Positions 5,337 to 23,338 of a stretch of 64,000 nucleotides of DNA are shown here, in pieces. Source of the DNA: Shigella phage JK32. Location: sequence record MK962753.1; one strand, given 5' to 3'. The first letter of the stretch is position 1; each line of letters opens with the position of its first letter. The notes beneath the pieces were generated by a model. The model saw only the letters and a program-made list of their open reading frames with translations. It did no database searches and was not told the DNA's origin. The position numbers and the translations under genes were made by a program.

Positions 5337-5351
5337 GTCTAAAAAACACAT

Positions 5352-5359: not shown

Positions 5360-5396
5360 AGATTGCAAGCCTATATTCTAAGGGGAGCGAAAATAG

Positions 5397-5705: not shown

Positions 5706-5708
5706 TGC

Positions 5709-7427: not shown

Positions 7428-7439
7428 TGGGGGTGTATA

Positions 7440-8363: not shown

Positions 8364-8370
8364 TCCTATT

Positions 8371-8400
8371 GTCGGGGAGAAATCCCCGACAACGTTTTCT
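8371..8400 (+). terminator. Rho-independent terminator
   Basis: 8-bp stem GTCGGGGA/TCCCCGAC with GAAA loop then ..CGTTTTCT. Confidence 0.6.
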
Positions 8401-8420
8401 AATATCAACGAGGATATGAT

Positions 8421-10265
8421 ATGTTAAGAAACCGTGCAATCAAGTCAACCCCTAATTTCATTCAAGGGGATATGGGAAATATTACCTCAAGAGATAATCA
8501 TGCATTAATGGAGCATGATATTCCAACAATCTCTGACACAATTAACAGGGATCTAATTACACCAGTAATTGATTTTATCAACGAATGCGATAATATTCTA
8601 CTCGATGGAATCGGGACGGTCGCAGATACTGTTGATATTATCGAACGGAAAGCTGATAATGCAACCGAAATTTCTAATTACGCCAGTGAAAAAGCTATCG
8701 AGGCATTGGCAAAATCAAAAGAAAGTTTGACGAAAGCGGAAGAAGCAAACACGGTAGCAAATAGTGTTGCTGGTGATGCGCAAACAGCATTAACTAAAGC
8801 TAATGAGGCTAAAACGCTAGCAGAAAGTCTTAAAACAAAAGTTGATGGTTATGACACCAGAATCACAGAAATTGATTCTAAGGCAACTACAGCTCAATCT
8901 GACGCGTCTTTAGCAAAAGATAAAGCTGATGCACTGGAAACAACGGTCAATAGCGAGAAAACTAAACTGACAGCATTGACTACTAAGGTCGATACTCTAG
9001 AAGGTGATATTATCGATGCTGTGGATCTGGCTGAACAAGCAAAGAATAAAGCCGATTCAGTAGAAACACAAGCCATTAATAACACCACAGAGATTACCGC
9101 TTTAAAAGGCCGTGTATCAACTGTAGAGACACAATCAGCAGAAGCCAATAGACTGGCTACCCAAGCCGATAAAAATGCGTCTACGGCGCTCTCAGACGTT
9201 TCTACGTTATCTTCAAAGGTTGATGATGTTAAGGCTACAGCCGACGCAGCAAGCGCAAGCGTGGCGGGATTAACTCAGGATATCGGAGAAGTGCGGACAC
9301 TGGCAGAAACAGCCACGACAAACATCACAACTCTTTCCGGTAAAGTTGATACCATAAAGACAACCGCAGATACAAACAAGACCAATATTGAAGCATTAAC
9401 CACTCAGGTTAATGAACACACAACTAAGATCGGAGAGTTGGAAACTGGTGTATCTAACGTTAATGGTGAACTTACCACGGTTCAGGAAACCGCAGCTAAT
9501 GCACTTCAAAAGGCCACCAGCGCAGAAACAAAGGCAGGTAATGTAGAGACACTAATTAATAGTCTTACACCGCGTGTGGACGCGTTAGAAGGCGATTTAG
9601 GTACATTAGAGAGCACTGTTGCTGATTTATCTCCTAAAGTGACAGCAGCAACCGAAAAAGCGACTATGGCATTCAACAAAGCAACTGCCTTAGAGCAAAA
9701 AACGGAATCGATGGAAACAGAAATCGAAGATGTTCGCCTCGATGCTGGGACCGCGATGGCAGAAGCGACACAAGCTAATAGTGAGATCGCCACGTTAAAA
9801 ACTAAAGTCGGTGAACTGGAAAGCGATGTTGACACAGCCGATACAATCGCAAATGAAGCATTAGCAGTTGCACAAAGGGCGGATACTAATGCAAATACAG
9901 CCAATACAAATCTTGCAACGATAACACCAATCGTGGAAAGATTGAATGGTGCATTTGTCGGTATGATTCGAATCAGATACAAGGAAACTCGAACTATAAC
10001 GAAAGCTGGCGGCAACACTCGTCGTAAGTTGATAATCCCACAAGTTCGAAAAGGTGATATGGCATTTGCGGCATTTTTAAACGTACCAGATAAACGAGAT
10101 AGTATTCTGTTTAACTGTATGATTCCTGTCGACGGCGAAGTTCACATGGCAATAAAAAATCTGCATACCGCTGCATTAGATTTTAACGATTGGGTTCAAA
10201 TATTGGTATTCCAGACAAGTACGGGTAATCCTATTGTTGACCCAGAAACAAGCCTAACAAACTAA
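8421..10265 (+). CDS. Coiled-coil fibrous protein (fibritin-like architecture), paralogous N-terminal domain
   Basis: 614 aa; conserved N-terminal domain shared with 7440..8363, then roughly 400 aa of A/T/E/K-rich heptad-like repeats, globular C-terminus. Confidence 0.6.
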   Translation: MLRNRAIKSTPNFIQGDMGNITSRDNHALMEHDIPTISDTINRDLITPVIDFINECDNILLDGIGTVADTVDIIERKADNATEISNYASEKAIEALAKSKESLTKAEEANTVANSVAGDAQTALTKANEAKTLAESLKTKVDGYDTRITEIDSKATTAQSDASLAKDKADALETTVNSEKTKLTALTTKVDTLEGDIIDAVDLAEQAKNKADSVETQAINNTTEITALKGRVSTVETQSAEANRLATQADKNASTALSDVSTLSSKVDDVKATADAASASVAGLTQDIGEVRTLAETATTNITTLSGKVDTIKTTADTNKTNIEALTTQVNEHTTKIGELETGVSNVNGELTTVQETAANALQKATSAETKAGNVETLINSLTPRVDALEGDLGTLESTVADLSPKVTAATEKATMAFNKATALEQKTESMETEIEDVRLDAGTAMAEATQANSEIATLKTKVGELESDVDTADTIANEALAVAQRADTNANTANTNLATITPIVERLNGAFVGMIRIRYKETRTITKAGGNTRRKLIIPQVRKGDMAFAAFLNVPDKRDSILFNCMIPVDGEVHMAIKNLHTAALDFNDWVQILVFQTSTGNPIVDPETSLTN

Positions 10266-10294
10266 TTAATTTCATCAACTATAGGGGAATTAAC

Positions 10295-10447
10295 ATGAGC
10301 AAGAAAAAAGATAGCTATGTTCAAATTACCAAGAAACAGTATGATGAATTAATGTTAGCGGTGGCCTATGCCATAATGCGATCTGATTTGGCGATCCAGC
10401 AAATCGAAAAGACAAATAAAAGTCTTGAGAATGTAGCAGCAAATTAA
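10295..10447 (+). CDS. Small hypothetical protein (50 aa)
   Basis: ATG with upstream GGGGA; below the ORF-track length cutoff; ends just before terminator hairpin. Confidence 0.3.
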   Translation: MSKKKDSYVQITKKQYDELMLAVAYAIMRSDLAIQQIEKTNKSLENVAAN

Positions 10448-10453
10448 TTTTTT

Positions 10454-10486
10454 GGGGAATCCTTAACTGGATTCCCCTTTCTTTTA
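10454..10486 (+). terminator. Rho-independent terminator before the gene 24 late promoter
   Basis: 9-bp stem GGGGAATCC/GGATTCCCC followed by TTTCTTTT. Confidence 0.7.
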
Positions 10487-10492
10487 TAAATA
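10485..10492 (+). promoter_or_regulatory. T4-type late promoter (TATAAATA) for gene 24
   Basis: Exact TATAAATA about 38 nt upstream of gene 24 ATG. Confidence 0.65.
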
Positions 10493-10530
10493 CAACCATA
10501 TCCATCAATAAAAATACAGGATTCATAAAC

Positions 10531-11772
10531 ATGGCACAGATTTTCAATGAACTGTTAAAGGAATCGACTTCCTCAGTAGCAAACCAGACAGCAAGACCAC
10601 AATTATTGGCACTTACCCGCGCGGTTAACAACCTGATTTTCTCCGATCTGGTGGCAATTCAGCCAACAAATCAGCCTATTTGTGCATTATTCGGACTTCG
10701 TTATGTTAACCGTGATGGTCAAATGACTTATCGTACCGCAGGAACGTATGGTGGTGCGGCTGGTAATCGTGATGTTTTTGAAGATTTTCAGAAAGATAAA
10801 GAATATCAGGTCGGTGATCATTTCAAATTTGATAATGTTGTATATGAAGTGATTACAGAAGGTGCAGTAGGACAGGATATTTCTACCGAAGAAGAAGCGA
10901 TCTTTAAGGGAGTAGTGTCAAATAAAATTCGTTTCTTTAGTGATTATGCACCGACTGAATATTTCGAAGATGCAAACACTGAAATTTCTACTACCGATTT
11001 TGATTTTGAAAAATGGCAAGTTAATGTCGGATCTCGTAAACTGAAAACAGAATTTACTACCGAATTGATGCAAGACCTGGAAGCAAACCAGATGAACTCT
11101 GAAAATACCGTTTTGGATCTTCTTGCTACCGTTGCATCCGAAGAAATCAATAAAGATATTATCCAGAAACTGATTACGGTATCAACTCGTTATAAAGTTA
11201 AGAGCATTACACCTGATGGCGTTCTTTCACTGGTTAACGTTCAGGACGCACCAGCACAAGCGCGTGAACTTTATCGCTATGCATGTGAAATGAGTAATCA
11301 AATGCTTCGCACTTCGTCTTTCGGTGGTACTTATGTTCTTGCATCTTCTCGTGTTGTTGGCCTCCTGCAAGCTAGTGGCTGGATGGAAGAAACTGACAAT
11401 GCACTAAGTGAAGGTCGTTTACGTTGTGGTTTAGAAGTTTATGCGGACACTGTAACCCCGTTTGATTATATGATCGTTGGTTGTAAGCATATGGTTGGTG
11501 ATATGGAGAGCGTAGGTTCTCTGTTCTACTCCCCATATACAGAATCAGACGGAGCGGGTGCATATAAGAGCATCATCGATCCTAATAGCTTCAACCATAA
11601 AGTAGCGATTATGAATAGATATGCTCTTTCTGTCAACCCATACACAACCAAAGCTGATCAAGAAAACAACCAAGTAATCAAGGGTGACGAGTGGGGCAAA
11701 CTTGCCGGACGTTCAGAAATGTCCTACATGCTGGGTATAGAACTGCCACCGCTTGAGATTGACAACGCTTAA
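10531..11772 (+). CDS. 24: Capsid vertex protein gp24
   Basis: 413 aa; aligns along its length with recalled T4 gp24 (e.g. ...LVAIQPTNQP..., KSRKLKT.FT.ELMQDLEAN, FYSPYTE). Confidence 0.92.
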   Translation: MAQIFNELLKESTSSVANQTARPQLLALTRAVNNLIFSDLVAIQPTNQPICALFGLRYVNRDGQMTYRTAGTYGGAAGNRDVFEDFQKDKEYQVGDHFKFDNVVYEVITEGAVGQDISTEEEAIFKGVVSNKIRFFSDYAPTEYFEDANTEISTTDFDFEKWQVNVGSRKLKTEFTTELMQDLEANQMNSENTVLDLLATVASEEINKDIIQKLITVSTRYKVKSITPDGVLSLVNVQDAPAQARELYRYACEMSNQMLRTSSFGGTYVLASSRVVGLLQASGWMEETDNALSEGRLRCGLEVYADTVTPFDYMIVGCKHMVGDMESVGSLFYSPYTESDGAGAYKSIIDPNSFNHKVAIMNRYALSVNPYTTKADQENNQVIKGDEWGKLAGRSEMSYMLGIELPPLEIDNA

Positions 11773-12360
11773 CTAAATATCTAACCAAGACAAATCAGAT
11801 CCGCCCAAGATTTTTTCAACGGCGGATCTATTTTCTTGATGATACAAGTTAAAGCATGGTATCCCATGTCTACGAGCAACATAAACAGCAATTCGAGTCC
11901 CGCCAGAAACAATCCCATTAACTTCTTTCGCCCAAAATAACACACAATCTACAGGATCATCAAGTGTCTCACCTAAGACTTGAGCAACATTTCTAGAAAA
12001 CAGATTTTGCATGTATAACGGTATAGAACGAGGATTATCATAAACGTGTTCTAATTCATCCATCGCCAGATTTTTTTGTTCTAAGGTTTGCCATGCAATC
12101 ACATCATGACCGTTATGCTTGTGGTCATAAAACTTCCAATTTGGAATGAAAATTTTTCTATAATCTGGATCGTAATACTTCATGAAAGCATTGTCCATAC
12201 CGTAAGCCCCTCCAGAATGCGCTACAACGCGATTTTCTGACAATACCCTCCCAATGGTACTAGCCATTATCAAAATGTCGCTAGGCGCTTTTCTAGAGCC
12301 GATTAAAGCACATCTACGAAGCGGTTTTACTCCAACTAGATCTTGTAACTGGTCAAACAT
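11773..12360 (-). CDS. SLOG-superfamily (DprA/Smf/YpsA-like Rossmann) protein
   Basis: 195 aa; motif LIGSRKAPSD...AHSGGAYGMDNA resembles the DprA/SLOG GSR...SGGA.G.D signature; occupies the position of rnlB in T4. Confidence 0.55.
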   Translation of the reverse strand: MFDQLQDLVGVKPLRRCALIGSRKAPSDILIMASTIGRVLSENRVVAHSGGAYGMDNAFMKYYDPDYRKIFIPNWKFYDHKHNGHDVIAWQTLEQKNLAMDELEHVYDNPRSIPLYMQNLFSRNVAQVLGETLDDPVDCVLFWAKEVNGIVSGGTRIAVYVARRHGIPCFNLYHQENRSAVEKILGGSDLSWLDI

Positions 12361-12512
12361 AATATTTCCTCCATAGAAAGCAATATCATACTACAAGTTA
12401 ATAACAAATACAAGTATCCGCGTAGCGGAAGCGAGCACAGCGAGCAATAAAACACTTCCAGTAATTGATTAATAAATGTTCGAAACAAATTTTTATTATT
12501 CTATAAGATAAG

Positions 12513-12538
12513 TCTTCGTTTTGATCATAATTTAATCA
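12513..12538. repeat. 26-nt direct repeat, copy 1 (TCTTCGTTTTGATCATAATTTAATCA)
   Basis: Identical 26-mer recurs at 12662..12687 inside a 410-bp ORF-free AT-rich intergenic region. Confidence 0.8.
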
Positions 12539-12661
12539 TACATGTAAAAACTACACAAAAGGATATCGCTTCGCGAACTCCTACGGAGTATAACATTTGT
12601 GTTACAATATGTATTGATTAATAATTAATCAAAGATACATTTTCTATGTTCTAAAGATCTT

Positions 12662-12687
12662 TCTTCGTTTTGATCATAATTTAATCA
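12662..12687. repeat. 26-nt direct repeat, copy 2
   Basis: Identical to 12513..12538; both copies followed about 20 nt later by ACATGTAAA. Confidence 0.8.
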
Positions 12688-12740
12688 AACAGTATTAATA
12701 TTGTGCACATGTAAACTAAAATTATGTTAATAACAGATAC

Positions 12741-12765
12741 AAAAAAGCCGCCCCGAAGGACGGCT
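12741..12765 (-). terminator. Rho-independent terminator (minus strand)
   Basis: AGCCGCCCCGAAGGACGGCT hairpin with A6 run on + strand (U-run on minus transcript), 9 nt beyond stop of 12774..13211. Confidence 0.65.
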
Positions 12766-12773
12766 AATGTTAA

Positions 12774-13211
12774 TTATTTGTTGATAACGATCTGATTTCG
12801 GCGAATGGTAACATTACTCTTAGAGATGATCAGATCATCCGGCACTACGTTAGTTTTGTATGGCTGGAAGCGAACAAGCATCTGATTGCGTTTAGACCCT
12901 TCCTTAATCTTGATTTCCATCTGGATATTGTTGCCTACGTGAGCAACCGCAATTTCACCTTTATTCTCATAGACCCACTTGCTGGTAACGTCTCCAGCAA
13001 AAGCCTTAATAACTTGCAATGCTTCGTCGTATGCGGTAGAGCTGTGAACTTTCAGAAGGCCAGCCGTCGCCAGACGTGAGCAAGTGATCGCCGGAGACTG
13101 CCAAACATCAACATTAATTTGCTCAATCAGAGTAACACCGCCCTGATCAACTGCTTTGAATGCTTCGAACATTGCTTTTTTCATTGCTACGTGGTTTTTA
13201 CGGAATTTCAT
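12774..13211 (-). CDS. Hypothetical protein (145 aa)
   Basis: Clean ORF bounded by terminator; no recognised domain. Confidence 0.6.
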   Translation of the reverse strand: MKFRKNHVAMKKAMFEAFKAVDQGGVTLIEQINVDVWQSPAITCSRLATAGLLKVHSSTAYDEALQVIKAFAGDVTSKWVYENKGEIAVAHVGNNIQMEIKIKEGSKRNQMLVRFQPYKTNVVPDDLIISKSNVTIRRNQIVINK

Positions 13212-13257
13212 AATTAGTCACCTCTATTGATTAGTTATTCAGAATATTAATTACAAA

Positions 13258-13533
13258 TTAGGACATTGCCCGTTTGAATGCGTCCATTATAACAGTGTTA
13301 TTTGGCTTGTCAACACGTTTTTGAACTTTATTTTTAAATTTTTTGTTGATGTGGTGTTTACGATAAACAACCTTTTCACGGTTGGCGTAAGCCTCTCGTG
13401 CATCTTTTACCATCAACCATGCCTTAGCCGCATCTTGTCCGCTGATCCCGCCAATCTTTTTAGCAATATCAACAAAATTAAGACCGTGGTCTTCGCGTAG
13501 CATGTAAACCATTAACGCTGTTTTCTTGTCCAT
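13258..13533 (-). CDS. Hypothetical protein with helix-turn-helix-like segment
   Basis: Start chosen at internal ATG overlapping upstream stop (TGATG coupling); ORF track gives a longer form 13258..13641; HTH-like FVDIAKKIGGISGQDAAKAW. Confidence 0.45.
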   Translation of the reverse strand: MDKKTALMVYMLREDHGLNFVDIAKKIGGISGQDAAKAWLMVKDAREAYANREKVVYRKHHINKKFKNKVQKRVDKPNNTVIMDAFKRAMS

Positions 13534-13730
13534 CACTTCGCCCCATTGACGATTAACAGGATAGTGATCAGTACCGGAAACTGGATCATGACAGTACCAA
13601 TAAACCGGATAAACGCATTTTCTGACTTCCACACATGACATGCGACTAGCTGATAGACCATTGTTGCAACCAAAGCCAGAAAATACATCTCGATTGGTGC
13701 TTCTTTGATCAATCGTACAATCTCATTCAT
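13533..13730 (-). CDS. Small membrane protein (65 aa)
   Basis: Two hydrophobic helices; stop overlaps start of next ORF. Confidence 0.45.
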   Translation of the reverse strand: MNEIVRLIKEAPIEMYFLALVATMVYQLVACHVWKSENAFIRFIGTVMIQFPVLITILLIVNGAK

Positions 13731-13888
13731 ACTTCACCTCATACATTCATAAACACAACAACGAATAGGACAGTAACAGTTATTAAAGCCATTTTCAACC
13801 CCATATTCATAATATTTTCCTCATAAGGTAACGCCCTGTTGATGTGTGCCATTATAAGCCACTAAATCACACTGTCAAGCACTAAAAA

Positions 13889-13914
13889 CAAAAAAGCCAC
13901 CCCGAAGGATGGCT
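13889..13914 (-). terminator. Rho-independent terminator (minus strand)
   Basis: AGCCACCCCGAAGGATGGCT hairpin preceded on + strand by an A-run; 12 nt beyond hoc stop. Confidence 0.65.
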
Positions 13915-13925
13915 GATAGATTTCA

Positions 13926-15152
13926 TTAAGCAGGAGGCGTTTCACGAATGCGTAGAACTCGCTCTAACGTCTCTCGGTCCAGTTTATGGAAATCTTTGGA
14001 CTGATACATGAAACCATTGCGAGATTCCATGCAAGTGCAATCACTATATTTTTCTTCCGCTGCTGCGATCGTCTCCAGATCTTTGGCGTACTTGCTGGTT
14101 GAATAAACTTCTCGGTGACGCCACTCTAAACCAGCCTCATTGAATTTAACAATCTCGTCAAATACCCACCATCCAATATAGATGAATGAAGTTTTGCGCC
14201 ACGGGATCGGGTGCACGTAACGGAACATTTTATGAAGAGATTCAACAACTTCCATTGAACACTTTCTGCTTGTATGTGCTGCAACTTCTACTGTTGCGCT
14301 TTCGATCTGTTGGTATAATTTAGCAACACACCAGAATTTGGCTGTGTCATCGTAAGTAGCACGCTCTTTGAACAGATGACCGTCTGGCATGATAGAAAAT
14401 CCTTCCAGTGCTTCGCCGACCTCACTACCGATCAGAGTCGGTGACGGCTGTCCTTCACGTTGCAAATACCAGTTATGTTTGATAGTCAATTTAGGCATAC
14501 CGCTAGAATCGCCTACAATGTCCTCTGATACAACATAATTAAGTAAGATTTCCTTACCTAGTGCTACGGTCTTTGATTCCACCACATCCTGATCTACGCT
14601 CATTGTAGCCAGCATGATTTTAGTCGATGCACTATCGGCTGAATCTTCCGATTCGCCCCATACTTTGACAGTATACACACCGTTGTTATCTGCTGTAAAT
14701 TCTTGGATCGTGATATCCTGTGTTGTGTCTATAACTTCTTCGCCCTTACTCCAACTATAATGTAGTTCATAGTTGTCTGTTGGAGTCTTCCCGCCAGAGA
14801 ATTTGACGGTTGCGTGTAATTCTACGTCTGTGTGAGTAGGAACATAGAATTGCGGCGGTTCGGTGATCTTAACGATTAATTCAGCTTCTTCCATACGGAA
14901 AACGTCAGATTCTACAGATTCCCCGCTGTCGGTATCTTGTACGGTGACTTTATAGTTACCCGCATTTTCACTTGTTGCACCTGCTACAGTTAGCGTAGCG
15001 GTGTTATTTTCATGCGGTTTGTTGTCTTTTGTCCATGTATAGGACAAATTGCTGGGTAATGGTTCGTCACCTGCTACAGTCGCTGTTAATGTGAAACCAT
15101 CTCCAGCAAGAAAACATCTTTTGTTCGATTTAATTGATACTGTGAAAGCCAT
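13926..15152 (-). CDS. hoc: Highly immunogenic outer capsid protein Hoc (3 Ig-like domains + capsid-binding domain)
   Basis: C-terminal domain RYVHPIPWRKTSF.Y.GWWV.DEI...ESRNG matches T4 Hoc C-terminus (PYVHPLPHRSSAYIWCGWWVMDEI...ESRNGY); start placed at second ATG which has a GGAG RBS. Confidence 0.8.
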   Translation of the reverse strand: MAFTVSIKSNKRCFLAGDGFTLTATVAGDEPLPSNLSYTWTKDNKPHENNTATLTVAGATSENAGNYKVTVQDTDSGESVESDVFRMEEAELIVKITEPPQFYVPTHTDVELHATVKFSGGKTPTDNYELHYSWSKGEEVIDTTQDITIQEFTADNNGVYTVKVWGESEDSADSASTKIMLATMSVDQDVVESKTVALGKEILLNYVVSEDIVGDSSGMPKLTIKHNWYLQREGQPSPTLIGSEVGEALEGFSIMPDGHLFKERATYDDTAKFWCVAKLYQQIESATVEVAAHTSRKCSMEVVESLHKMFRYVHPIPWRKTSFIYIGWWVFDEIVKFNEAGLEWRHREVYSTSKYAKDLETIAAAEEKYSDCTCMESRNGFMYQSKDFHKLDRETLERVLRIRETPPA

Positions 15153-15167
15153 ATAAAGCCACTCCAT

Positions 15168-15191
15168 ATAAAAGCCGACCCGAAGGTCGGC
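15168..15191 (-). terminator. Rho-independent terminator between the two hoc paralogues
   Basis: GCCGACCCGAAGGTCGGC hairpin plus U-run on minus transcript. Confidence 0.6.
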
Positions 15192-15201
15192 GTTTAATTA
15201 A

Positions 15202-17742
15202 TTAAAATAGTTGAGTACCATCAACCAGATAACCATTACGAGATTCCAATACATGAGTATTAGAATAGTGATGCAACGAGGCTGCAATAGTCTCGATCTC
15301 GTCCGGGTATTTGGTGTGTTCAAAGTCTTCTAACCAGTTAAGCCCTTCGCGGTTGCAACGGTCAATTTCATCAAGTACCCAATAGCCTTGATACTGGAAC
15401 GAAGTACGACGCCACGGAATCGGGTGTACATAGCGTTTTAATTTCGCGGTAGTAAACACTACACGAACTTTTTCACTATGTTTAACATGTCCTTCGTCGT
15501 CAGTAACTTCTGCATAATAGGTTGCTTGATGTGTCTCCTTGCTAATTTGTTCTTTAGGAATAGTATACACCTTACTATTCGCGCCAGGAATAACAGTATC
15601 TTTACCGCCCTGAATTTTATGCCACTTCCATTGAACTTCTTTTTCATCATCAACGTGTTCGGCATGAGCTTCTAAGGTAATATCCTGTTTCTGTCCTTCT
15701 TTAGCAACCACATCCACCGGATGTTTCAGAATATTGATATTTGAATGATGAGTCATTGTCACTAATGCAGGATTAGATTCAATGGTATTCTCACCAGCCG
15801 TAATTACCGCTGTGTAGCTGCCTACGTCAGACGGTTTTGCGTGATCAATAATCAACACATCTGAATTTGCACCAGGAATAATTTCACCGTCTTTTTTCCA
15901 TTGATATGATGGTTTAATACCAATAGATGTTTGTGCGGCAGCGTGTAACATAATTTTTTCATTATATTTCACATGCGCATCTTGTGGGTGAGTTGTTATT
16001 GCTAGGTCATTTGGAACAACCGTTACATCGTCGGAGATCAACACCCTAACCGCTTCTGACATTTTAGAAACTCGATGTTCACCGAATCCAGCCGATACAC
16101 GGCATGTATAAACGCCAGTAGATGTTAATTGTGCATGATCTTCGCCATATACATTTCGTTGTTCAATTCCTGCTGGGAAAAGATCCTCACCATCTTTAAA
16201 CCAACGGTAACGAACTGGCAAAGCATCATTAGACGTTGCCTTGATGGTAAGCGCCCATTGTCCACCGGAGCGAACTTTAACTGCTTTCGGTTGTACAGTG
16301 ATCTCTAACGTTGCCTTTGAGTTATCAACTGTCACCTGAACTGCATTAGACTCAGCCGAAATTCTGTGATTCTGGATACCCATAGAAACTTTACATTTAT
16401 ATTGACCTTCGTCTGCTTTAGTGATTGAGGAAAAATGCAAAGTTTTAGATGTTTTTCCAGGAATCAACTCATCATTTTTATACCACTGATAATCAAGTTT
16501 ATAATGTTCGTAGTCTGTCTCTGCTTCACAAATAAGAGTTTGTGAGGAACTAACTCGAACATTGGTTAACTGCTGTGGTTGTTGAGTGATTCGAATTGTT
16601 GGCGCAGCACCGACAAGAAGATCCGCTTCTTGTGATTCTGAAACCATATTATCACCGTAAGTCACTTTTGCTTTATATTTCGCCTGATTTAATTCCGCAG
16701 TTGCTGGTGCAATGTGGAGATCTTTATTAGTTGCGCCAACAATTGGTTTAAATTCATCTTCACCATTTTTCTTGATGTACCATTGAACTTTTACTGGTTC
16801 ATAGTTTGTTGCATAATCAACACTGAACAAACCTAAAGCACCAGCACCCACATTTATTGTGAGTGGTTGTTTAGTGAATCGAAAGAACGATCGACCTTCG
16901 ACTGTAACGTGACAATCTTTTGAATAGATCGTTGTTTCTGCTTGACGAACTTCAAGACGCCATACACCCTCGTCTTTTTTCGTGACGTGGGTTATAGTTA
17001 ATGCAGTGCCGTCTTGATCCAACACCATCCTATCGTTGTGAATCCACACATATGATAAAGGACGAGTTTTGTCATCGGTTGTCACCTGTGCTTGTAGTTC
17101 AAGTCTTCCATCTTCTGGAACTGTAACCGCTGATGGGTAATGTTCCTGAATATGAACTTTAGGAGCATCTTTATTTTGTTCCACTACTACAGGACTGATC
17201 CAATAGTGAGAACGTGCATCATCGGTAACAAATACCTTACAAGTATAGTTGCCAAAATCCTCATAACCAACTCGATCTACATGCACGTTTTTTTGACGGA
17301 TTTTATCTGGATTTAACTGAATGTGGTTTTTATACCAAATAGTATCAAATTGCTTGTTATCTTCGATGAACGGAGTAACAAAAATATCCAATTCTTCGCC
17401 TAAACGCTTATAAATGTAGGTCGGAGATTGATCCTGTGGTGCAAGGAAGGTGCGACGTTCAACAAGAATAGGCTTAATATCAACCGATTCAAGCGGATTA
17501 TCTTTCAGCTTAACTTTCGCTGTATACGTGCCGAATTGATCTTGAGTCATTTCAGCAATATACAGAGATTGATCTGGTTCTGCAACCTGATCTGATGGTA
17601 CGCTTTGACCGTTTAGCTTCCATTCTACGATATAGTCTTTAAAATCTGCGGTACTTACTACGAGCTTAAGAACAAGTTCATGTCCTACAGACGCGTAGAC
17701 CGGACCCATAGTTTGATGTAAAATATTGATTTTATCAGACAT
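15202..17742 (-). CDS. Hoc-like giant paralogue (multiple Ig-like domains + Hoc capsid-binding domain)
   Basis: 846 aa; repeated ~90-aa Ig-like units with conserved W/Y/C pattern; C-terminus KRYVHPIPWRRTSFQYQGYWVLDEI...ESRNGY homologous to Hoc C-domain; RBS AAGAGGA. Confidence 0.8.
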   Translation of the reverse strand: MSDKINILHQTMGPVYASVGHELVLKLVVSTADFKDYIVEWKLNGQSVPSDQVAEPDQSLYIAEMTQDQFGTYTAKVKLKDNPLESVDIKPILVERRTFLAPQDQSPTYIYKRLGEELDIFVTPFIEDNKQFDTIWYKNHIQLNPDKIRQKNVHVDRVGYEDFGNYTCKVFVTDDARSHYWISPVVVEQNKDAPKVHIQEHYPSAVTVPEDGRLELQAQVTTDDKTRPLSYVWIHNDRMVLDQDGTALTITHVTKKDEGVWRLEVRQAETTIYSKDCHVTVEGRSFFRFTKQPLTINVGAGALGLFSVDYATNYEPVKVQWYIKKNGEDEFKPIVGATNKDLHIAPATAELNQAKYKAKVTYGDNMVSESQEADLLVGAAPTIRITQQPQQLTNVRVSSSQTLICEAETDYEHYKLDYQWYKNDELIPGKTSKTLHFSSITKADEGQYKCKVSMGIQNHRISAESNAVQVTVDNSKATLEITVQPKAVKVRSGGQWALTIKATSNDALPVRYRWFKDGEDLFPAGIEQRNVYGEDHAQLTSTGVYTCRVSAGFGEHRVSKMSEAVRVLISDDVTVVPNDLAITTHPQDAHVKYNEKIMLHAAAQTSIGIKPSYQWKKDGEIIPGANSDVLIIDHAKPSDVGSYTAVITAGENTIESNPALVTMTHHSNINILKHPVDVVAKEGQKQDITLEAHAEHVDDEKEVQWKWHKIQGGKDTVIPGANSKVYTIPKEQISKETHQATYYAEVTDDEGHVKHSEKVRVVFTTAKLKRYVHPIPWRRTSFQYQGYWVLDEIDRCNREGLNWLEDFEHTKYPDEIETIAASLHHYSNTHVLESRNGYLVDGTQLF

Positions 17743-17820
17743 GTAATATCCTCTTTTTTAATTGCATAACGGAACTACAATTAAAAACATAACAAATATT
17801 TCACAACTTTTACACTCTTA

Positions 17821-18546
17821 TTATTTAAGCGTGTGGAATTGGCTGTGTTTAGTCTCTCGCACCTTGACAGACCCATCGCGTTTGATATAATAGATCAGTG
17901 ACTTGAGGGTGTCGTGTACATACGCGTGCGGGAAACGTTCTGGATACTTCTTCCAATCTGGAGTATTAACGATCCAGTCGAAAATCCACCACGGGCAGGA
18001 GTAGTAACCACGACCGCCACCGATCAAGCAAATGGTCGGACGGAAACCAGTAAGATCGCAAAATGAGTCAGTGTCATGTGCTGGGGAACGATGCTCTGCT
18101 TCGTCAGAGAAAATGTTTGCTACCGGAGATTCCGCTTTAACTTCCGATGCTTCTTCAAAATCTAACTTAACTTCTTCGACCACTGGTTCAACTGCTGGAG
18201 ATTCTTCTTTTGTTTCTTCAATGACGATCTCAGGTTCTTTCATTGCTTCAACCAGAGACGGATCAACTTCGTCGAATACCACTTTATCATCTGCGGTGTC
18301 TGCTGCCAGAATAAGATCGTTAATACTGGTTCCCTCTTCTGGGGTTTCTTCTTCCATTTCGGACGCCAGTTTAGTTAATTCGGTTTCTACGAACTCGATC
18401 ATATTCTCTAGCGAGAGCGTCTTTTTGACCTTGATATCAAATTGTTTTGCGTAGTCCGCTAATTCTGTTTTAGCGGTTTTCTGTGCTTCTTTGTCGTCGG
18501 ACGCCGCAATAGCGCGGAGTTCTTCGAAATATTCTTTATCAAACAT
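17821..18546 (-). CDS. Hypothetical protein, acidic N-terminal half, Cys/Trp-rich C-terminus (occupies inh position of T4)
   Basis: 241 aa ORF between hoc genes and uvsW; assignment to Inh is by position only. Confidence 0.55.
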   Translation of the reverse strand: MFDKEYFEELRAIAASDDKEAQKTAKTELADYAKQFDIKVKKTLSLENMIEFVETELTKLASEMEEETPEEGTSINDLILAADTADDKVVFDEVDPSLVEAMKEPEIVIEETKEESPAVEPVVEEVKLDFEEASEVKAESPVANIFSDEAEHRSPAHDTDSFCDLTGFRPTICLIGGGRGYYSCPWWIFDWIVNTPDWKKYPERFPHAYVHDTLKSLIYYIKRDGSVKVRETKHSQFHTLK

Positions 18547-18572
18547 GTTATTCTCCTGATTGGGGGTGTTTG

Positions 18573-18580
18573 TATAAATA
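18573..18580 (+). promoter_or_regulatory. T4-type late promoter (TATAAATA) for uvsW
   Basis: Exact TATAAATA about 36 nt upstream of uvsW ATG. Confidence 0.6.
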
Positions 18581-18616
18581 TTTGTATACTGTATTTATTG
18601 AGTGAGGCTATTCGCT

Positions 18617-20119
18617 ATGCAAGATATTAAAATTCACTTTCTGAACTACTCTCATGTTCAAATTGAATGTAGCGATTCAATTTTATTAGAAATGCGAGAT
18701 TATTTTAGTTTTGAAGTCGAGGGAGCGCGGTTTCAAAAAAGATTTAAGTATGGTGGATGGGATGGGCGTATTCGTCTTTTAGATTACAATGGAAAGCTGC
18801 CAATCGGCCTAACTAAAACCGTGGGAATCTTCGCTAAAAATATGGGCTATAGCGTATGGGTAGACCCTCGCTTATTCGAAAAAGAACAAGTTACAGAAGA
18901 AGAAATTACAAAATGGTGTAATGATCTGGAATTATATTCCGGTGCTAACAGGATCACCCCGCATTGGTATCAATCAAAGGCTGTCTTTGAAGGTATTCAT
19001 CATAAACGCCGTATGTTAGTTTTGCCTACGTCCGCTGGTAAATCTGCGATTGCTTGTATGTTGTCTCGCTGGTACTTAGAGAACTACGAAGGGAAAGTGC
19101 TGATCATCGTTCCTACCACGTCGCTAGTGCTGCAAATGCGTGATGATTTTGTTGATTATCGCCAGTTTCCTTATGAAGCAATTCATACTATCATGAGCGG
19201 TACTAGTAAACACGTAGGTGATCGCCTGATCGTTGTTAGTACATGGCAATCTGCATGTAAACAGCCTCGTGAGTGGTTCCAACAATTTGGGATGGTAATT
19301 GTTGATGAATGTCACAAGGCCACTGCTAAAAACCTGCTAAACATCGTTACTGATATGGATCATTGCCAATTTAAGATCGGCATGACTGGTTCCCCTCGTG
19401 ACGGGAAAGCTAACATGATGCAGTATGTCGGGCTTTTCGGTGATATTTCTAAGATCGTGAGTATTGACCGCCTGATGGAAGAAGGTCAAGTGACAAAACT
19501 GAAAATTAACTGTCTTTTCCTTCGTTATACCGATGAGGAATGTAGCGCGGTTAAGGGGAGAGAATATGCGGAAGAGATCAAGTATATTACATCTAACCCA
19601 CGACGAAATAAGTTTGCTTGCAATTTGGCGCTAAAACTCGCTAAGAAGGGCGAAAACGTATTCCTTATGTTCCGCAATACTAAGCACGGAAAACTTATGT
19701 ATGACGCGTTACAGAAGGTACACGACAAGGTTTATTATATTGACGGTGGAGTTAAGACAGAAGAACGTGATGAATTTAAGAAAATGGCGGAGGGTGACAC
19801 CGGGATCATTTGTGTTGCGTCTTATGGTGTGTTCTCTACTGGTGTTTCCATCAAGAACTTGCACCATGTTATTTTCGGGCATCCAGTTAAAGAATCAACC
19901 ATTGTTAGACAGAGTATCGGTCGTGCATTGCGTAAACATGGTTCTAAGGATATTGCTACCGTTTGGGATCTTATCGATCATTTGGCGGTTAAGACAAAGA
20001 GCAAGAATGCTAAGAAACAGTTTAGCCACCTTAATTATGCTCTTAAACATGCGCTTTTGAGGATACAGCTTTACAATACCGATAAATTTGAGTATGCTAC
20101 CAAGACTATAGAAATCTAA
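18617..20119 (+). CDS. uvsW: UvsW recombination/repair helicase
   Basis: Aligns with recalled T4 UvsW (MQDIKIHF..., YFSFE, WDGRIRLLDYN, helicase motifs LPTSAGKS, DECH); start moved to ATG 18617. Confidence 0.92.
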   Translation: MQDIKIHFLNYSHVQIECSDSILLEMRDYFSFEVEGARFQKRFKYGGWDGRIRLLDYNGKLPIGLTKTVGIFAKNMGYSVWVDPRLFEKEQVTEEEITKWCNDLELYSGANRITPHWYQSKAVFEGIHHKRRMLVLPTSAGKSAIACMLSRWYLENYEGKVLIIVPTTSLVLQMRDDFVDYRQFPYEAIHTIMSGTSKHVGDRLIVVSTWQSACKQPREWFQQFGMVIVDECHKATAKNLLNIVTDMDHCQFKIGMTGSPRDGKANMMQYVGLFGDISKIVSIDRLMEEGQVTKLKINCLFLRYTDEECSAVKGREYAEEIKYITSNPRRNKFACNLALKLAKKGENVFLMFRNTKHGKLMYDALQKVHDKVYYIDGGVKTEERDEFKKMAEGDTGIICVASYGVFSTGVSIKNLHHVIFGHPVKESTIVRQSIGRALRKHGSKDIATVWDLIDHLAVKTKSKNAKKQFSHLNYALKHALLRIQLYNTDKFEYATKTIEI

Positions 20120-20130
20120 TGATACAAAAA

Positions 20131-20151
20131 TACCCCGCGCTATGCGGGGTA
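20131..20151 (+). terminator. GC-rich hairpin after uvsW (no clear U-tract)
   Basis: CCCCGC..GCGGGG stem; could be a terminator or an mRNA-stability structure. Confidence 0.35.
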
Positions 20152-20167
20152 TGGAGGAAAGAAAATC

Positions 20168-21253
20168 ATGGAACTTGTATTTGCTAAAGATATAGAATTT
20201 GTAAAGAAAACAAACAATAAGTCCCCTCAATATTATGAAGACCTTATTATCAAACGCTGTGCTGATCTGAAACTTAACTTTGATGGATTTATTCTTCCGT
20301 GGACTGGTGCTAAGACTAAATTAATTATATCAAATCCAGAAAACGGTTTGACACAGACAATAAATGTTAACAGAATGATAACTTCTACAAATCCAGGTGA
20401 CAAACTAAAACGAGCAAATGAATTGCACTACAAGTCAGAAGCAACAAAATATCTGTTAAACGCTGGTCTTGAATTTATTGGTTGGAATGGGGAATATAAT
20501 AAAAGTAATTCTCTGTCTACATGGTGCGACGCTAAATGTTTGATTCATGGAACTACTCATCGATATTTATTGCGAACTATAGTTCAGCATAAAGATATGG
20601 TAAAGACAAAATGTGTTGAATGTTATCGGATCAATGAATTGACGGAAAAATACGGTAGTGTTGATGCAGCAATAGAAGACCAAGAAAAGCGAGTTTTCGA
20701 TATTGTTTCTAAGTTGGGGTATGAAATAAAACATTTCACTGGAGACCGATTGAGAGACAGCGAAACTGATGTAGTTCTATATTGCCCTAAACATGATGTT
20801 GAGTTTAGTCGAAATGTTTGCGACCTGGTTTATAAGAAATTTGTATACTGTCCTACATGCATTTCTGTTAATAAAGGAATGAGAAGTGGAATAATCCATT
20901 CCTCCAATATAGGGGCATCTAAACCGACTTCAATCTATTTGCAAAATTTGAGCGATAAGTTTTGTAAGTTTGGCGTTAGCGTTCGCCCAAAAGTTAGGAT
21001 GTATGAGCAACAAAAAGTTTCTCAATATAACCACTCTCTTGTGTATGTTCACACTTTCGAAAAAGGCTGGATGGCTGCCGATGTGGAATATGGGATAAAA
21101 CTTAACTTTAAAGGGCGTGGTGCTAGCCCTACAGCCGTTCCTGATGGGTATACGGAAACGAGAGATATTAGTATGCTCGATAGTATAAAACAGTTTATAG
21201 AAAACTATATAAGAGAGAATCCAGAAAATCCTCTATACCTAACAGAAATTTAA
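20168..21253 (+). CDS. Zn-ribbon-repeat protein with conserved C-terminal domain ending PDGYTET (paralogue of 55545..56783)
   Basis: 361 aa; several C..C......C..C modules; C-terminal IYLQ...KFGVS...R..R..Y...PDGYTET shared with ORF 55545..56783. Confidence 0.6.
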   Translation: MELVFAKDIEFVKKTNNKSPQYYEDLIIKRCADLKLNFDGFILPWTGAKTKLIISNPENGLTQTINVNRMITSTNPGDKLKRANELHYKSEATKYLLNAGLEFIGWNGEYNKSNSLSTWCDAKCLIHGTTHRYLLRTIVQHKDMVKTKCVECYRINELTEKYGSVDAAIEDQEKRVFDIVSKLGYEIKHFTGDRLRDSETDVVLYCPKHDVEFSRNVCDLVYKKFVYCPTCISVNKGMRSGIIHSSNIGASKPTSIYLQNLSDKFCKFGVSVRPKVRMYEQQKVSQYNHSLVYVHTFEKGWMAADVEYGIKLNFKGRGASPTAVPDGYTETRDISMLDSIKQFIENYIRENPENPLYLTEI

Positions 21254-21258
21254 TAAAT

Positions 21259-21283
21259 AGGGGCATATAGCCCCTATATTTTT
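21259..21283 (+). terminator. Rho-independent terminator
   Basis: AGGGGC-ATATA-GCCCCT hairpin followed by ATATTTTTA. Confidence 0.6.
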
Positions 21284-21298
21284 ACGGAGATTAAAATA

Positions 21299-21538
21299 AT
21301 GAGTATTAGCTTTAAAAGATTCCTTGTAGAAGCGGTTATTGATGGTTTCATGAATAAAATCTATTCTTGTAATACTATGGAAGGTTTGGACGAGCTTGAA
21401 AAATATTATGAAAAGCGCAAGAAAGAGACCGATCTCAAACCGTCAGATGATATCTCTATTCGTGATGCAATAGCAGGTCGGAGAAAACAGTTAGAGAGTG
21501 AAAACGAGCCGGAGGAGGAGCCGGAAGAGGATTTTTAA
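21299..21538 (+). CDS. Hypothetical protein (79 aa, acidic C-terminus)
   Basis: ORF with upstream GGAG; no recognised homologue. Confidence 0.5.
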   Translation: MSISFKRFLVEAVIDGFMNKIYSCNTMEGLDELEKYYEKRKKETDLKPSDDISIRDAIAGRRKQLESENEPEEEPEEDF

Positions 21539-21552
21539 TAAATCATCGGATA

Positions 21553-21580
21553 CAAAAAAAAGCCCCATCAATGATGGGGC
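21553..21580 (-). terminator. Rho-independent terminator (minus strand)
   Basis: 8-bp stem GCCCCATC/GATGGGGC; A8 on + strand gives a U-run on the minus transcript. Confidence 0.6.
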
Positions 21581-21618
21581 AAACAAAACCAATTAAAATC
21601 GGTTATCAACAAATTCCT

Positions 21619-21810
21619 TTAGAGAATCAAAGTAGTTTCTACCAGTTGTTCTTGTTCTTCTGCACTTGATTCGCTCAAATGATTCCGGTTTGCAAATTCT
21701 TCGCAATATCCCGGATGAACAACATGATTTTCGATTTTAACAGCCAACGCCATTTCGACTGGCTGTTTACATACAGCACAAATACAAGTCATAAATCCTT
21801 CCTCCTGCAT
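21619..21810 (-). CDS. Small Cys-rich hypothetical protein
   Basis: 63-aa ORF with CxxC and HxxxC; start uncertain. Confidence 0.4.
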   Translation of the reverse strand: MQEEGFMTCICAVCKQPVEMALAVKIENHVVHPGYCEEFANRNHLSESSAEEQEQLVETTLIL

Positions 21811-21822
21811 ATATTTAGTGTC

Positions 21823-22230
21823 TTACTTTCCAGACTCAAGCATACGCAACTCTATAGCATTCTTGATCGCGAATCCTCGCGATTTGATTATATCAAGAGC
21901 CTTGCCAGCAAAATCCATAACCATTTGATAATAAGCAATTTTTGTGTCCAATGGTAGGATATCATCATCTGCCGCCATCACAACTTTCAATTCTGATGTG
22001 GCGTACTCAACTCTACACCATTCATCACTACGATTAGTGTAAAAGTCAAGTTTATTTTTTGTGGCTTTCTTTTTCTTTGCTTCCAGCGCAATGATCTCGC
22101 GCTTTGCTTCACTATACACACGAAGCCATTTAGAGTAAACTACAGGGTTATTAAGTGCTTCCCATTGTAGCTTTGTTGCGTCGATCTTGACGTCAGCGTC
22201 AAGCTGGTCTTTGAGTTCATTCAGGTCCAT
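21823..22230 (-). CDS. uvsY: UvsY recombination mediator
   Basis: C-terminus IKSRGFAIK...E.GK matches T4 UvsY; start moved to ATG 22230 (RBS GAGGTG). Confidence 0.88.
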   Translation of the reverse strand: MDLNELKDQLDADVKIDATKLQWEALNNPVVYSKWLRVYSEAKREIIALEAKKKKATKNKLDFYTNRSDEWCRVEYATSELKVVMAADDDILPLDTKIAYYQMVMDFAGKALDIIKSRGFAIKNAIELRMLESGK

Positions 22231-22245
22231 AGTAAAACACCTCAA

Positions 22246-22632
22246 TCATTTAGACAATCTAACTCTAAGTTGTTCTAACTCATCTGGATTGTCTATAACA
22301 GAAAAATAAACCGTTACGATAATCGAGTTCTCATCATACTGCGGAGTTACGTCTACGTCAAGCCTTTTTACTCGTGGTTCGTAGTTTCTTATCGATTCTG
22401 TGATATTCTTAGACAAGGTATCCACAGTCAATGGGTTGATGTTTTCGAATAGTGCGCGGTTTAGATCACATCCAAAGTTAGGATCAAACGGGCGAGATCC
22501 CTTAGCCGTGGTTATGATCAGCAATATGGAATCTTTAACCGCTTTAATCCCTGTGTTCTTTTTAATATCGTTGTTCCATGCTCGCTTAAACTCTAGATTT
22601 AAGTCAGTGTACATCTGGTTAACTGTTGTCAT
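22246..22632 (-). CDS. 25: Baseplate wedge subunit gp25
   Basis: Matches T4 gp25 (IITTAKGSRPFDPNFGCDL, RNYEPR, FSVIDNPDE). Confidence 0.9.
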   Translation of the reverse strand: MTTVNQMYTDLNLEFKRAWNNDIKKNTGIKAVKDSILLIITTAKGSRPFDPNFGCDLNRALFENINPLTVDTLSKNITESIRNYEPRVKRLDVDVTPQYDENSIIVTVYFSVIDNPDELEQLRVRLSK

Positions 22633-22639
22633 AACTACC

Positions 22640-23278: not shown

Positions 23279-23310
23279 CTCTTATGATACATAGAAATTA
23301 TTTAGTATTT

Positions 23311-23318
23311 TATAAATA
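23311..23318 (+). promoter_or_regulatory. T4-type late promoter (TATAAATA) for gene 51
   Basis: Exact TATAAATA about 20 nt upstream of gene 51 ATG, in the divergent 26/51 intergenic region. Confidence 0.6.
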
Positions 23319-23338
23319 CCCGAAAGGGGGATTGTATT

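What the first reader, a model, noticed from the sequence alone, without database searches (positions are those of the whole stretch)
13926..17742. Two tandem Hoc paralogues with very different numbers of Ig-like domains
Both ORFs end in the same capsid-binding C-terminal domain that matches T4 Hoc (YVHP(I/L)P.R...Y..GWWV.DEI...ESRNG). The first is 846 aa with about seven Ig-like repeats, the second about 408 aa with about three. Each has its own terminator. T4 has a single hoc. Two Hoc variants competing for the same capsid site would give a mosaic or extended capsid surface display, relevant to mucus or host-surface adherence and to phage display engineering.
Basis: partly seen in the sequence, partly recalled or inferred. 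Interest (0 to 1): 0.6.

Follow-up and report, generated by a model that had tools for sequence, protein, structure and literature searches.

The report
Long and short Hoc gene pair
This RB49-like T4-type phage carries two intact head-decoration (Hoc) genes side by side, one with eight and one with three antibody-like domains; this arrangement is already described in another T4-type phage, and here it turns out to be the ancestral state that the model phage RB49 lost by deletion.

Summary
Window 15202..17742 (-) encodes an 846-aa protein and 13926..15152 (-) a 408-aa protein. Both end in the T4 Hoc capsid-binding domain. The short one is the orthologue of RB49 Hoc, whose crystal structure is PDB 3SHS. 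The long one has eight Ig-like modules, not about seven. It is not an assembly artefact: the gene has no long DNA repeats, dN/dS is about 0.12, and 13 protein clusters of 60-97% identity are all 841-847 aa. The order inh, long hoc, short hoc is the same in every related contig examined.

The kind is already known. Fokine et al. 2023 (PMC10385173) describe Serratia phage Muldoon with a 1174-aa and a 314-aa Hoc. A Muldoon-type IMG/VR contig shows the same long-then-short tandem order.

Three points I did not find in the papers searched:
- RB49, Phi1 and most Krischvirus isolates carry deletion remnants of the long gene, annotated as ORFans.
- A GC-rich hairpin between the two genes is conserved in structure but not in sequence.
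- The Krischvirus and Muldoon-type pairs arose by separate duplications.

Display of both proteins on the capsid is inferred, not shown.

The parts
15202..17742 (-). Long hoc paralogue (hocL), 846 aa, about 96 kDa, pI 5.8
   Evidence: ORF. AGAGGA lies 7 nt before the ATG. PHROG 1149 Hoc-like, E 3.5e-52. dN/dS 0.11-0.13. Thirteen orthologue clusters of 841-847 aa. Mass and pI.
15451..17742 (-). Array of eight Ig-like modules of hocL. Approximate residue borders: 1-95, 96-191, 192-284, 285-379, 380-475, 476-571, 572-665, 666-764
   Evidence: Per-segment Pfam Ig/PKD hits for 7 of 8 segments. Every module has another module with shuffle Z of at least 7.9. AlphaFold2 model with pLDDT about 80-90 and beta strands throughout. 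Foldseek top hits are long multi-domain Ig strings, including DSCAM's eight Ig domains.
15205..15450 (-). Hoc-type capsid-binding C-terminal domain of hocL (residues 765-846)
   Evidence: Matches T4 Hoc residues 241-366, domain E 5e-10. It is the most conserved part of the protein: 93% mean identity against 64-80% for the Ig modules. The T4 contact residues Y293, H295, R300, W310 and ESRNG are kept, and W309 is replaced by Y.
15174..15191 (-). GC-rich tetraloop hairpin (GCCGACC-TTCG-GGTCGGC) followed by TTTTAT, between hocL and hocS. Read as a weak terminator, attenuator or RNA-stabilising hairpin
   Evidence: A hairpin at the same place but with different stem sequences occurs in SSG23, Brandy, UPWr_E1, L008, L009 and L010, always with a short T run. 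It is absent in Phi1 and RB49.
13926..15152 (-). Short hoc paralogue (hocS), 408 aa, about 46 kDa, pI 4.9. Orthologue of RB49 Hoc, with three Ig domains plus the C-domain. The open frame extends to 15167
   Evidence: Matches PDB 3SHS at E 6e-177 over residues 1-303. 91% amino-acid identity to RB49 Hoc and dN/dS 0.08-0.19. PHROG 1149, E 3e-78.
13929..14237 (-). Hoc-type capsid-binding domain of hocS, with a conserved basic C-terminal tail of about 22 aa that is absent from hocL
   Evidence: Matches T4 Hoc residues 291-363, domain E 6e-11. Subtype-specific features are conserved in the L008 and L009 orthologues.
13851..13914 (-). Strong terminator hairpin (13914..13895, followed by TTTTTTGTTTTT), then a perfect TTGACA-16-TATAAT promoter (13878..13851). 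This is a stem-loop plus early promoter cassette of the PeSL type
   Evidence: PeSL cassettes are reported to be associated with hoc in PMC2839356.
17821..18546 (-). inh (inhibitor of the prohead protease), the gene immediately upstream and probably co-transcribed
   Evidence: PHROG 1051, E 1.7e-76. Annotated as inh in relatives. In L008 only 12 nt separate inh from hocL.
18592..18599 (-). AATAAATA, a one-mismatch T4 late-promoter motif 46 nt upstream of inh. Candidate promoter for the inh-hocL-hocS unit (inferred)
   Evidence: No exact TATAAATA lies on the minus strand near either hoc gene.

Best explanation
The window comes from an RB49-like (Krischvirus) T4-type phage that keeps two functional hoc genes in one late head-gene unit. 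The order is inh, hocL, a weak hairpin, hocS, then a strong terminator. HocL is a string of eight Ig-like modules on a Hoc capsid-binding domain. HocS is the three-Ig RB49-type Hoc.

Shown:
- Both are intact, conserved Hoc family members under purifying selection.
- The pair is conserved in order and length down to about 60% identity.
- The capsid-binding domain is the most constrained part of HocL.
- The single-hoc state of RB49 and Phi1 is derived, by a deletion of about 2.3 kb and then a further 75-nt deletion.

Inferred:
- Both proteins dock through their C-domains at the centre of major-capsid-protein hexamers, one per hexamer. Virions would then carry a mixture of short fibres (about 18 nm) and long fibres (roughly 40 nm, scaled from T4 Hoc's 180 Angstrom for four domains).
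- The ratio is set by read-through of the intergenic hairpin and by the relative affinity of the two C-domain subtypes.
- The long fibre extends the reach of weak, reversible adhesion to bacterial or mucosal surfaces.
For: Identity as Hoc. Eight modules. Not an artefact. Purifying selection, with dN/dS 0.11-0.13 for the long gene and 0.08-0.19 for the short. Constant length of 841-847 aa over 13 clusters with only single-residue indels, and the C-domain at 93% identity against 64-80% for the Ig modules. Conserved synteny in L008, L009, L010 and L058. Deletion remnants in Phi1, GEC-3S, ECD7 and Makalu (type A) and in RB49, SAP and KFS-EC (type B, which is type A minus 75 nt between CAGAA repeats). 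PHROGs 19377 and 32100 are these remnant ORFs. Hairpin conserved in structure with different stems and short T runs, and only 12 nt between inh and hocL in L008. RB49 Hoc, with the same C-domain subtype as HocS, binds T4 capsids in vitro; Hoc contact residues are listed in the same paper: PMC10385173. Precedent of long plus short Hoc in Muldoon.
Against: There is no virion proteomics, imaging or binding data for HocL in any paper found. The two C-domains are only 46% identical and form two separately conserved subtypes. The long type has YQGYWV and no tail. The short type has GWWVF, a 2-aa insert and a basic tail. Equal use of the same site is therefore not guaranteed. The AlphaFold2 model gives the C-domain pLDDT below 50, so the shared fold rests on sequence homology only. 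No exact late promoter was found for the unit. Most isolates have lost hocL, so it is dispensable, at least on the hosts used for isolation.
Confidence: 0.7

Rival explanations
1. Both proteins are capsid decorations but do not compete. The two C-domain subtypes have diverged to prefer different hexamer classes of the prolate head (vertex-proximal against others, or caps against mid-section), or different binding orientations. The surface would then be patterned rather than randomly mosaic.
For: The C-domain subtypes are each conserved among orthologues but only 46-47% identical between paralogues. Subtype-specific features include the W309-equivalent changed to Y in the long type, and an insert and a basic tail of about 22 aa in the short type. 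T4 Hoc already shows orientation preferences at vertex-proximal hexamers (PMC10385173).
Against: Most of the gp23-contact residues named for T4 Hoc are identical or conservatively replaced in both. After hocL was lost, RB49-type phages keep the same HocS subtype, and purified RB49 Hoc restores T4 Hoc-minus particles' behaviour when added at a 20:1 excess over binding sites. Nothing in the sequence points to a second site.
Confidence: 0.15
2. HocL is not a capsid protein in practice. It is a soluble or cell-surface-directed Ig-string protein that merely retains a Hoc-derived domain, or it is made at negligible levels and is on its way to loss.
For: Most Krischvirus isolates have deleted it: of 58 records, only 3 cover at least 80% of the locus and UPWr_E1 covers 76%. 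The Ig segments also resemble PHROG 'tail protein' families.
Against: dN/dS is about 0.12. Length is strictly conserved at 841-847 aa down to 60% identity. The C-domain is the most conserved segment at 93%. This is the opposite of what a decaying gene or a vestigial anchor would show. The gene has a good Shine-Dalgarno sequence and sits inside the late head-gene cluster.
Confidence: 0.1
3. The long ORF is an assembly artefact, either a repeat mis-assembly or a chimera of hoc copies.
For: Modular Ig arrays can be mis-assembled when the repeats are near-identical.
Against: The longest internal DNA repeat is 35 nt at 71% identity and there are no tandem repeats. The same 846-847-aa gene occurs in four independent isolate genomes, in 13 protein clusters from independent runs and in an IMG/VR contig (L058).
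Confidence: 0.01

Closest known systems
T4 Hoc (highly immunogenic outer capsid protein; PDB 5VF3, 8T1X)
   Same: Both window proteins share its C-terminal capsid-binding domain, including YVHP, R300, W310 and the ESRNG motif. Both have an N-terminal string of Ig-like domains, lie next to inh and are acidic to mildly acidic.
   Different: T4 has one gene of 376 aa with three Ig domains. Here there are two genes, with eight and three Ig domains. The C-domains are only 36-38% (long) and 31-38% (short) identical to T4's.
RB49 Hoc (crystal structure 3SHS of its three Ig domains)
   Same: HocS is its direct orthologue: 91% amino-acid identity, E 6e-177, same locus.
   Different: RB49 has only this gene. 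Where the window has hocL, RB49 has a remnant of about 150 nt, annotated as ORF168.2.
Serratia phage Muldoon Hoc pair (1174 aa with 10 Ig domains, plus 314 aa with 2 Ig domains; Fokine et al. 2023, PMC10385173)
   Same: One very long and one short Hoc in a single genome. In a Muldoon-type IMG/VR contig (L035) they are tandem on the same strand, long first, 32 nt apart. That is the same layout as here.
   Different: The duplication is independent. The Muldoon-type pair's C-domains are 73% identical to each other and 22-32% identical to the Krischvirus ones. The Krischvirus pair's C-domains are 47% identical to each other. Module numbers also differ: 10 and 2 against 8 and 3.
Second Hoc-like genes of Dhakavirus and Gaprivervirus phages (JS10, VR7) and of Enterobacter phage PG7
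   Same: An extra gene carrying the Hoc capsid-binding domain lies next to hoc.
   Different: In JS10 and VR7 the second gene is convergent, short (272-287 aa) and lies next to a collagen-like or tail-fibre-like gene. PG7's longer protein carries a lipase domain instead of an Ig string. None has an eight-Ig array.

Membership tests
Hoc (T4-type head outer capsid decoration protein) | [quoted passage not shown] | tested here: met
   Long: domain E 5e-10 to 5vf3_Z residues 241-366. Short: 6e-11 to residues 291-363. ESRNG is invariant and YVHPIPWR is present in both. PHROG 1149, 14282 and 11091 'Hoc-like head decoration' match both. No Pfam model matched this domain at E up to 1.
Hoc (T4-type head outer capsid decoration protein) | N-terminal linear string of Ig-like domains | tested here: met
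   Long: eight modules. Short: three, from its match to the RB49 Hoc crystal structure 3SHS.
Hoc (T4-type head outer capsid decoration protein) | Position in the late head-gene cluster beside inh, between gene 24 and uvsW | tested here: met
   The window order is gp24, dprA-like, 24.3, hocS, hocL, inh, uvsW. This is collinear with RB49, Phi1 and SSG23.
Hoc (T4-type head outer capsid decoration protein) | One monomer bound at the centre of each major-capsid-protein hexamer of the mature head | not testable with these tools
   This needs virion proteomics, binding assays or cryo-EM. Indirect support: contact residues are conserved, and the C-domain is the most conserved segment of the long protein.
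Hoc (T4-type head outer capsid decoration protein) | Non-essential accessory protein that is variable between close relatives | tested here: met
   Most Krischvirus isolates have deleted hocL. Against UPWr_E1, both hoc genes are 66-68% identical while the adjacent inh is 97.5% identical.
Dual long plus short Hoc arrangement (as in Serratia phage Muldoon) | Two ORFs in one genome, each ending in a Hoc capsid-binding domain, with very different numbers of Ig domains | tested here: met
   846 aa with 8 Ig modules and 408 aa with 3 Ig domains. Muldoon: 1174 aa with 10 Ig and 314 aa with 2 Ig. The tandem order is the same in L035. Common descent of the two pairs was tested and not supported.

The most novel reading that the evidence does not exclude
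The eight-Ig HocL fibre, roughly 40 nm long, acts as a long-reach primary adhesin that changes which hosts or niches the phage can exploit. For example, it might help virions hold on to or work through O-antigen or mucus layers. Its presence or loss would then be an ecological switch within Krischvirus. One lead: of the four RB49-like phages compared in PMC9569957, only Brandy49 carries hocL, and only Brandy49 infects all the O-antigen-shielded strains by a mechanism the authors call elusive. A related unexcluded reading is that the two C-domain subtypes pattern the prolate head non-randomly.
Probability: 0.12. Interest if true: 0.7.

Novelty: new member of a known kind. Interest (0 to 1): 0.35.

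Why it matters
Hoc is a standard platform for phage display and the textbook example of phage adherence to mucus and cell surfaces. RB49 Hoc is the only Hoc whose Ig domains have a crystal structure. Showing that the RB49 lineage descends from phages with a second, eight-Ig Hoc has several consequences. It gives a natural isogenic-like series (Brandy49 or SSG23 against RB49, Cognac49 and Whisky49) for testing what a longer capsid fibre does. It explains two 'unknown function' PHROG families and the phi1 and RB49 ORFans 168.1 and 168.2 as pseudogene remnants. It shows that long plus short Hoc pairs arose more than once, which argues that mixed-length decoration is selected. For display engineering, it suggests the Hoc anchor tolerates a passenger of about 765 aa. 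The core idea of two Hocs of different length in one phage is already published.

Tried and rejected
- Exact T4 late promoter TATAAATA: none on the minus strand near inh or either hoc gene. Only one-mismatch motifs lie upstream of inh, so the promoter assignment stays an inference.
- Sigma-70 scan: no more sites than in shuffled sequence. The only relevant site is the perfect promoter after the hocS terminator.
- Tandem and direct repeat searches in the long gene found nothing significant. The collapsed-repeat idea is rejected.
- Pfam has no match for the Hoc C-domain. PDB sequence search and PHROGs were used instead.
- AlphaFold2 with a 14-sequence alignment modelled the Ig array well. The C-domain came out below pLDDT 50 and pTM was 0.34. 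No structural claim is therefore made on the C-domain or on fibre shape, and the fibre length is scaled from T4.
- Literature searches for a Krischvirus long Hoc, virion proteomics of SSG23, Brandy or UPWr_E1, or recognition of the remnant ORFs found nothing. The supplement of PMC10385173 held as text did not include the 650-sequence alignment, so I could not check whether Brandy's protein is listed there.
- Common origin of the Muldoon-type and Krischvirus pairs is rejected on C-domain identities.
- Rfam and tRNA scans of the window were empty.
Full report
**What is there**

On the minus strand the window carries inh (17821..18546), an 846-aa ORF (15202..17742) and a 413-aa ORF (13926..15167). 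The second ORF most likely starts at the second ATG, 15152, which gives 408 aa. That start has GGAG upstream and matches the annotated starts in relatives. uvsW follows on the plus strand (18602..20119).

The region is 94.5% identical over its full length to three Krischvirus records: Shigella phages SSG23 and SFHK24, and Enterobacteria phage Brandy. Escherichia phage UPWr_E1 covers 76% at 80% identity. The other 54 matching Krischvirus records, which include Phi1, GEC-3S, ECD7 and KFS-EC, cover only about half of the query. The window therefore comes from an RB49-like T4-type phage.

**Identity of the two proteins**

- The 408-aa protein is the orthologue of RB49 Hoc. It matches the RB49 Hoc crystal structure 3SHS, which contains that protein's three N-terminal Ig domains, at E 6e-177 over residues 1-303. 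It is 91% identical to the RB49 protein.
- Both proteins end in the T4 Hoc capsid-binding domain. The HMMER per-domain E-values against 5vf3_Z are 5e-10 for the long protein and 6e-11 for the short one.
- The two C-domains are 46% identical to each other (E 2e-23).
- Both match PHROG 1149, 'Hoc-like head decoration'.
- Fokine et al. 2023 name the T4 Hoc residues that contact the capsid. Y293, H295, R300, W310 and the ESRNG motif are identical in both proteins. Y304 is F and W306 is Y in both. W309 is W in the short protein and Y in the long one.

**Domain count of the long protein**

- When the protein is cut into eight segments of about 95 aa, seven hit Ig or PKD Pfam models on their own.
- The fourth segment has no Pfam hit but aligns to the fifth with a shuffle Z-score of 12.9.
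- Every module has at least one partner among the others with Z of 7.9 or more.
- AlphaFold2 with a 14-sequence alignment gives a beta-rich model for residues 1-763 at pLDDT about 80-90.
- The best Foldseek matches to solved structures are long multi-domain Ig strings, including DSCAM's eight Ig domains and a contactin-2 Ig1-6 plus FNIII1-2 structure.
- The count is therefore eight Ig-like modules plus the C-domain, not about seven.
- The modules resemble each other more than they resemble the short Hoc's domains. This points to old internal duplication.

**It is a real, maintained gene**

- The gene contains no tandem repeats, and its longest internal direct repeat is 35 nt at 71% identity. 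A collapsed or expanded repeat assembly is excluded.
- A search of the 5.8-billion-protein collection found 13 clusters of full-length orthologues at 60-97% identity. All are 841-847 aa long and differ only by single-residue indels.
- dN/dS is 0.11-0.13 for the long gene and 0.08-0.19 for the short one.
- The C-domain is the most conserved segment of the long protein, at 93% mean identity against 64-80% for the Ig modules. That pattern fits an anchor that must fit a fixed capsid site while the distal modules vary.
- The order inh, long hoc, short hoc, 24.3 recurs in the most diverged contigs (L008, L009, L010). It also recurs in an IMG/VR contig (L058).

**The single-hoc state of RB49 is derived**

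Between inh and hoc, Phi1 has a 54-codon ORF, phi1p168.1. Its first 34 residues match the N-terminus of the long Hoc. The rest of the ORF reads the last ~110 nt of the long gene out of frame.

Mapping seven single-hoc genomes onto the window gave two remnant types:
- Type A (Phi1, GEC-3S, ECD7, Makalu_002) keeps about 105 nt of the 5' end and about 130 nt of the 3' end. The junction lies in a stretch of about 14 nt that aligns to both sides, around AGACTTT. Its exact position is approximate.
- Type B (RB49, vB_Eco_SAP, KFS-EC) equals type A minus a further 75 nt between two CAGAA repeats. It shares type A's distinctive downstream sequence.

The simplest history is one deletion of about 2.3 kb followed by further erosion. 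The outgroups L008 and L009 have inh proteins only 61-67% identical to the window's, yet both carry the gene pair. The RB49-type short hoc is 91% identical to the window's. The loss therefore occurred inside a two-hoc lineage.

Arbiol et al. 2010 listed ORFan168.1 and RB49 ORF168.2 as ORFans near hoc (PMC2839356). PHROG families 19377 and 32100, both 'unknown function', match residues 1-34 and 809-846 of the long Hoc. I read all of these as remnants of the pseudogene.

**Expression signals (mostly inference)**

- Each hoc gene is followed by a GC hairpin with a T run.
- The hairpin after the short gene has a long T tract. It is immediately followed by a perfect TTGACA-16-TATAAT promoter. This is the stem-loop plus early promoter (PeSL) layout that Arbiol et al. 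associate with hoc.
- The hairpin between the two hoc genes occurs at the same place in all seven two-hoc sequences examined. The stems differ (GCCGACC, GGTCGCCC, AGCCAGTCC, ATGCCCCC) and only 2-4 T residues follow. It is missing from the single-hoc phages.
- No promoter motif lies between this hairpin and the short gene's start.
- In L008 only 12 nt separate inh from the long gene.
- No exact TATAAATA lies on the minus strand nearby. One-mismatch motifs AATAAATA and TACAAATA sit upstream of inh.
- I therefore infer one late transcription unit, inh-hocL-hocS, with the hairpin acting as a leaky terminator or stabiliser that tunes the ratio of the two proteins.

**Comparison with what is known**

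- Fokine et al. 2023 (PMC10385173) surveyed 650 Hoc homologues. They report that Serratia phage Muldoon encodes a 1174-aa Hoc with ten Ig domains and a second Hoc of 314 aa. They also report two Hoc-like proteins in Enterobacter phage PG7.
- JS10 and VR7 carry a second, convergent Hoc-like gene.
- In a tblastn search of 50,697 phage records, 1341 records gave 1596 Hoc C-domain places. Part of the excess is the Krischvirus remnants.
- In a sample of 45 IMG/VR Hoc loci, seven had two or more ORFs with a Hoc C-domain. One is a Muldoon-type contig with the 1174-aa and 314-aa genes in the same long-then-short tandem order. Another has three such ORFs.
- C-domain identities indicate separate duplications. 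The Krischvirus long and short domains are 47% identical to each other and 22-40% to all others. The Muldoon-type pair's C-domains are 73% identical to each other.
- The finding is therefore a new member of a known kind, with recurrent origin as an added point.

**Mechanism and open points**

The best-supported reading is that both proteins dock at hexamer centres and give a mixed coat of short and long fibres. The long fibre would be roughly 40 nm if extended, scaled from the 180 Angstrom of four-domain T4 Hoc. Display of the long protein on virions has not been shown anywhere I could find.

The two C-domain subtypes are separately conserved. The short type has a 2-aa insert and a basic tail of about 22 aa. 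Different site or orientation preferences therefore remain possible.

Against UPWr_E1, both hoc genes have diverged together (66-68% identity, dS about 1.8-1.9) while the adjacent inh is 97.5% identical. This suggests the pair moves as one recombining module.

One lead worth testing: among RB49, Cognac49, Whisky49 and Brandy49, only Brandy49 keeps the long hoc. Only Brandy49 infects all the O-antigen-shielded strains, by a mechanism the authors call elusive and attribute to gp38 (PMC9569957). This is a single correlation, not evidence.

**Verdict**

The kind is already published for other T4-type phages. The added value is the evolutionary history in the RB49 group and a ready experimental contrast between two-hoc and one-hoc phages. 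Interest is modest.

Noticed in passing
window 20168..21253 (+): A 361-aa ORF lies between uvsW and uvsW.1 (21299..21538). In SSG23, Brandy, Phi1 and RB49, uvsW.1 follows uvsW after about 44 nt, so this is an insertion of about 1.1 kb. Megablast finds it in only 1 of 50,697 phage records (Enterobacteria phage Whisky, 97.4%). Pfam gives only a sub-threshold CapR homology domain hit. Local GC is about 0.36. It is a candidate free-standing mobile gene.
   Followed up: partly
window 17864..17891 (+): A perfect sigma-70 consensus (TTGACA, 16-nt spacer with TG, TATAAT) lies inside inh and antisense to it, pointing toward uvsW. It could be an early promoter giving an antisense transcript across the 5' part of inh.
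   Followed up: no
L004 3943..4107 (phi1p168.1); L011 2695..2892 (RB49p168.2): PHROG families 19377 and 32100, both 'unknown function', match residues 1-34 and 809-846 of the long Hoc. The ORFans 168.1 and 168.2 of Arbiol et al. 2010 are the matching ORFs. I read all of these as remnants of the deleted long hoc gene.
   Followed up: yes
L034 6422..11014 (IMG/VR UViG_2706796116): Three adjacent ORFs each end in a Hoc capsid-binding domain: 279 aa, 944 aa and a convergent 285 aa. Their C-domains are only 38-43% identical to one another.
   Followed up: partly
L003 (Escherichia phage UPWr_E1) 2627..6447, compared with the window: Both hoc genes are 66-68% identical to the window's, with dS about 1.8-1.9. 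The adjacent inh is 97.5% identical, with dS 0.14. The hoc pair looks like a module exchanged as a unit.
   Followed up: partly
window 1..64000: The whole window has no tRNA genes and no Rfam family at gathering threshold. The lack of tRNA genes fits the reported absence of tRNA genes in Krischvirus (PMC11162368).
   Followed up: yes
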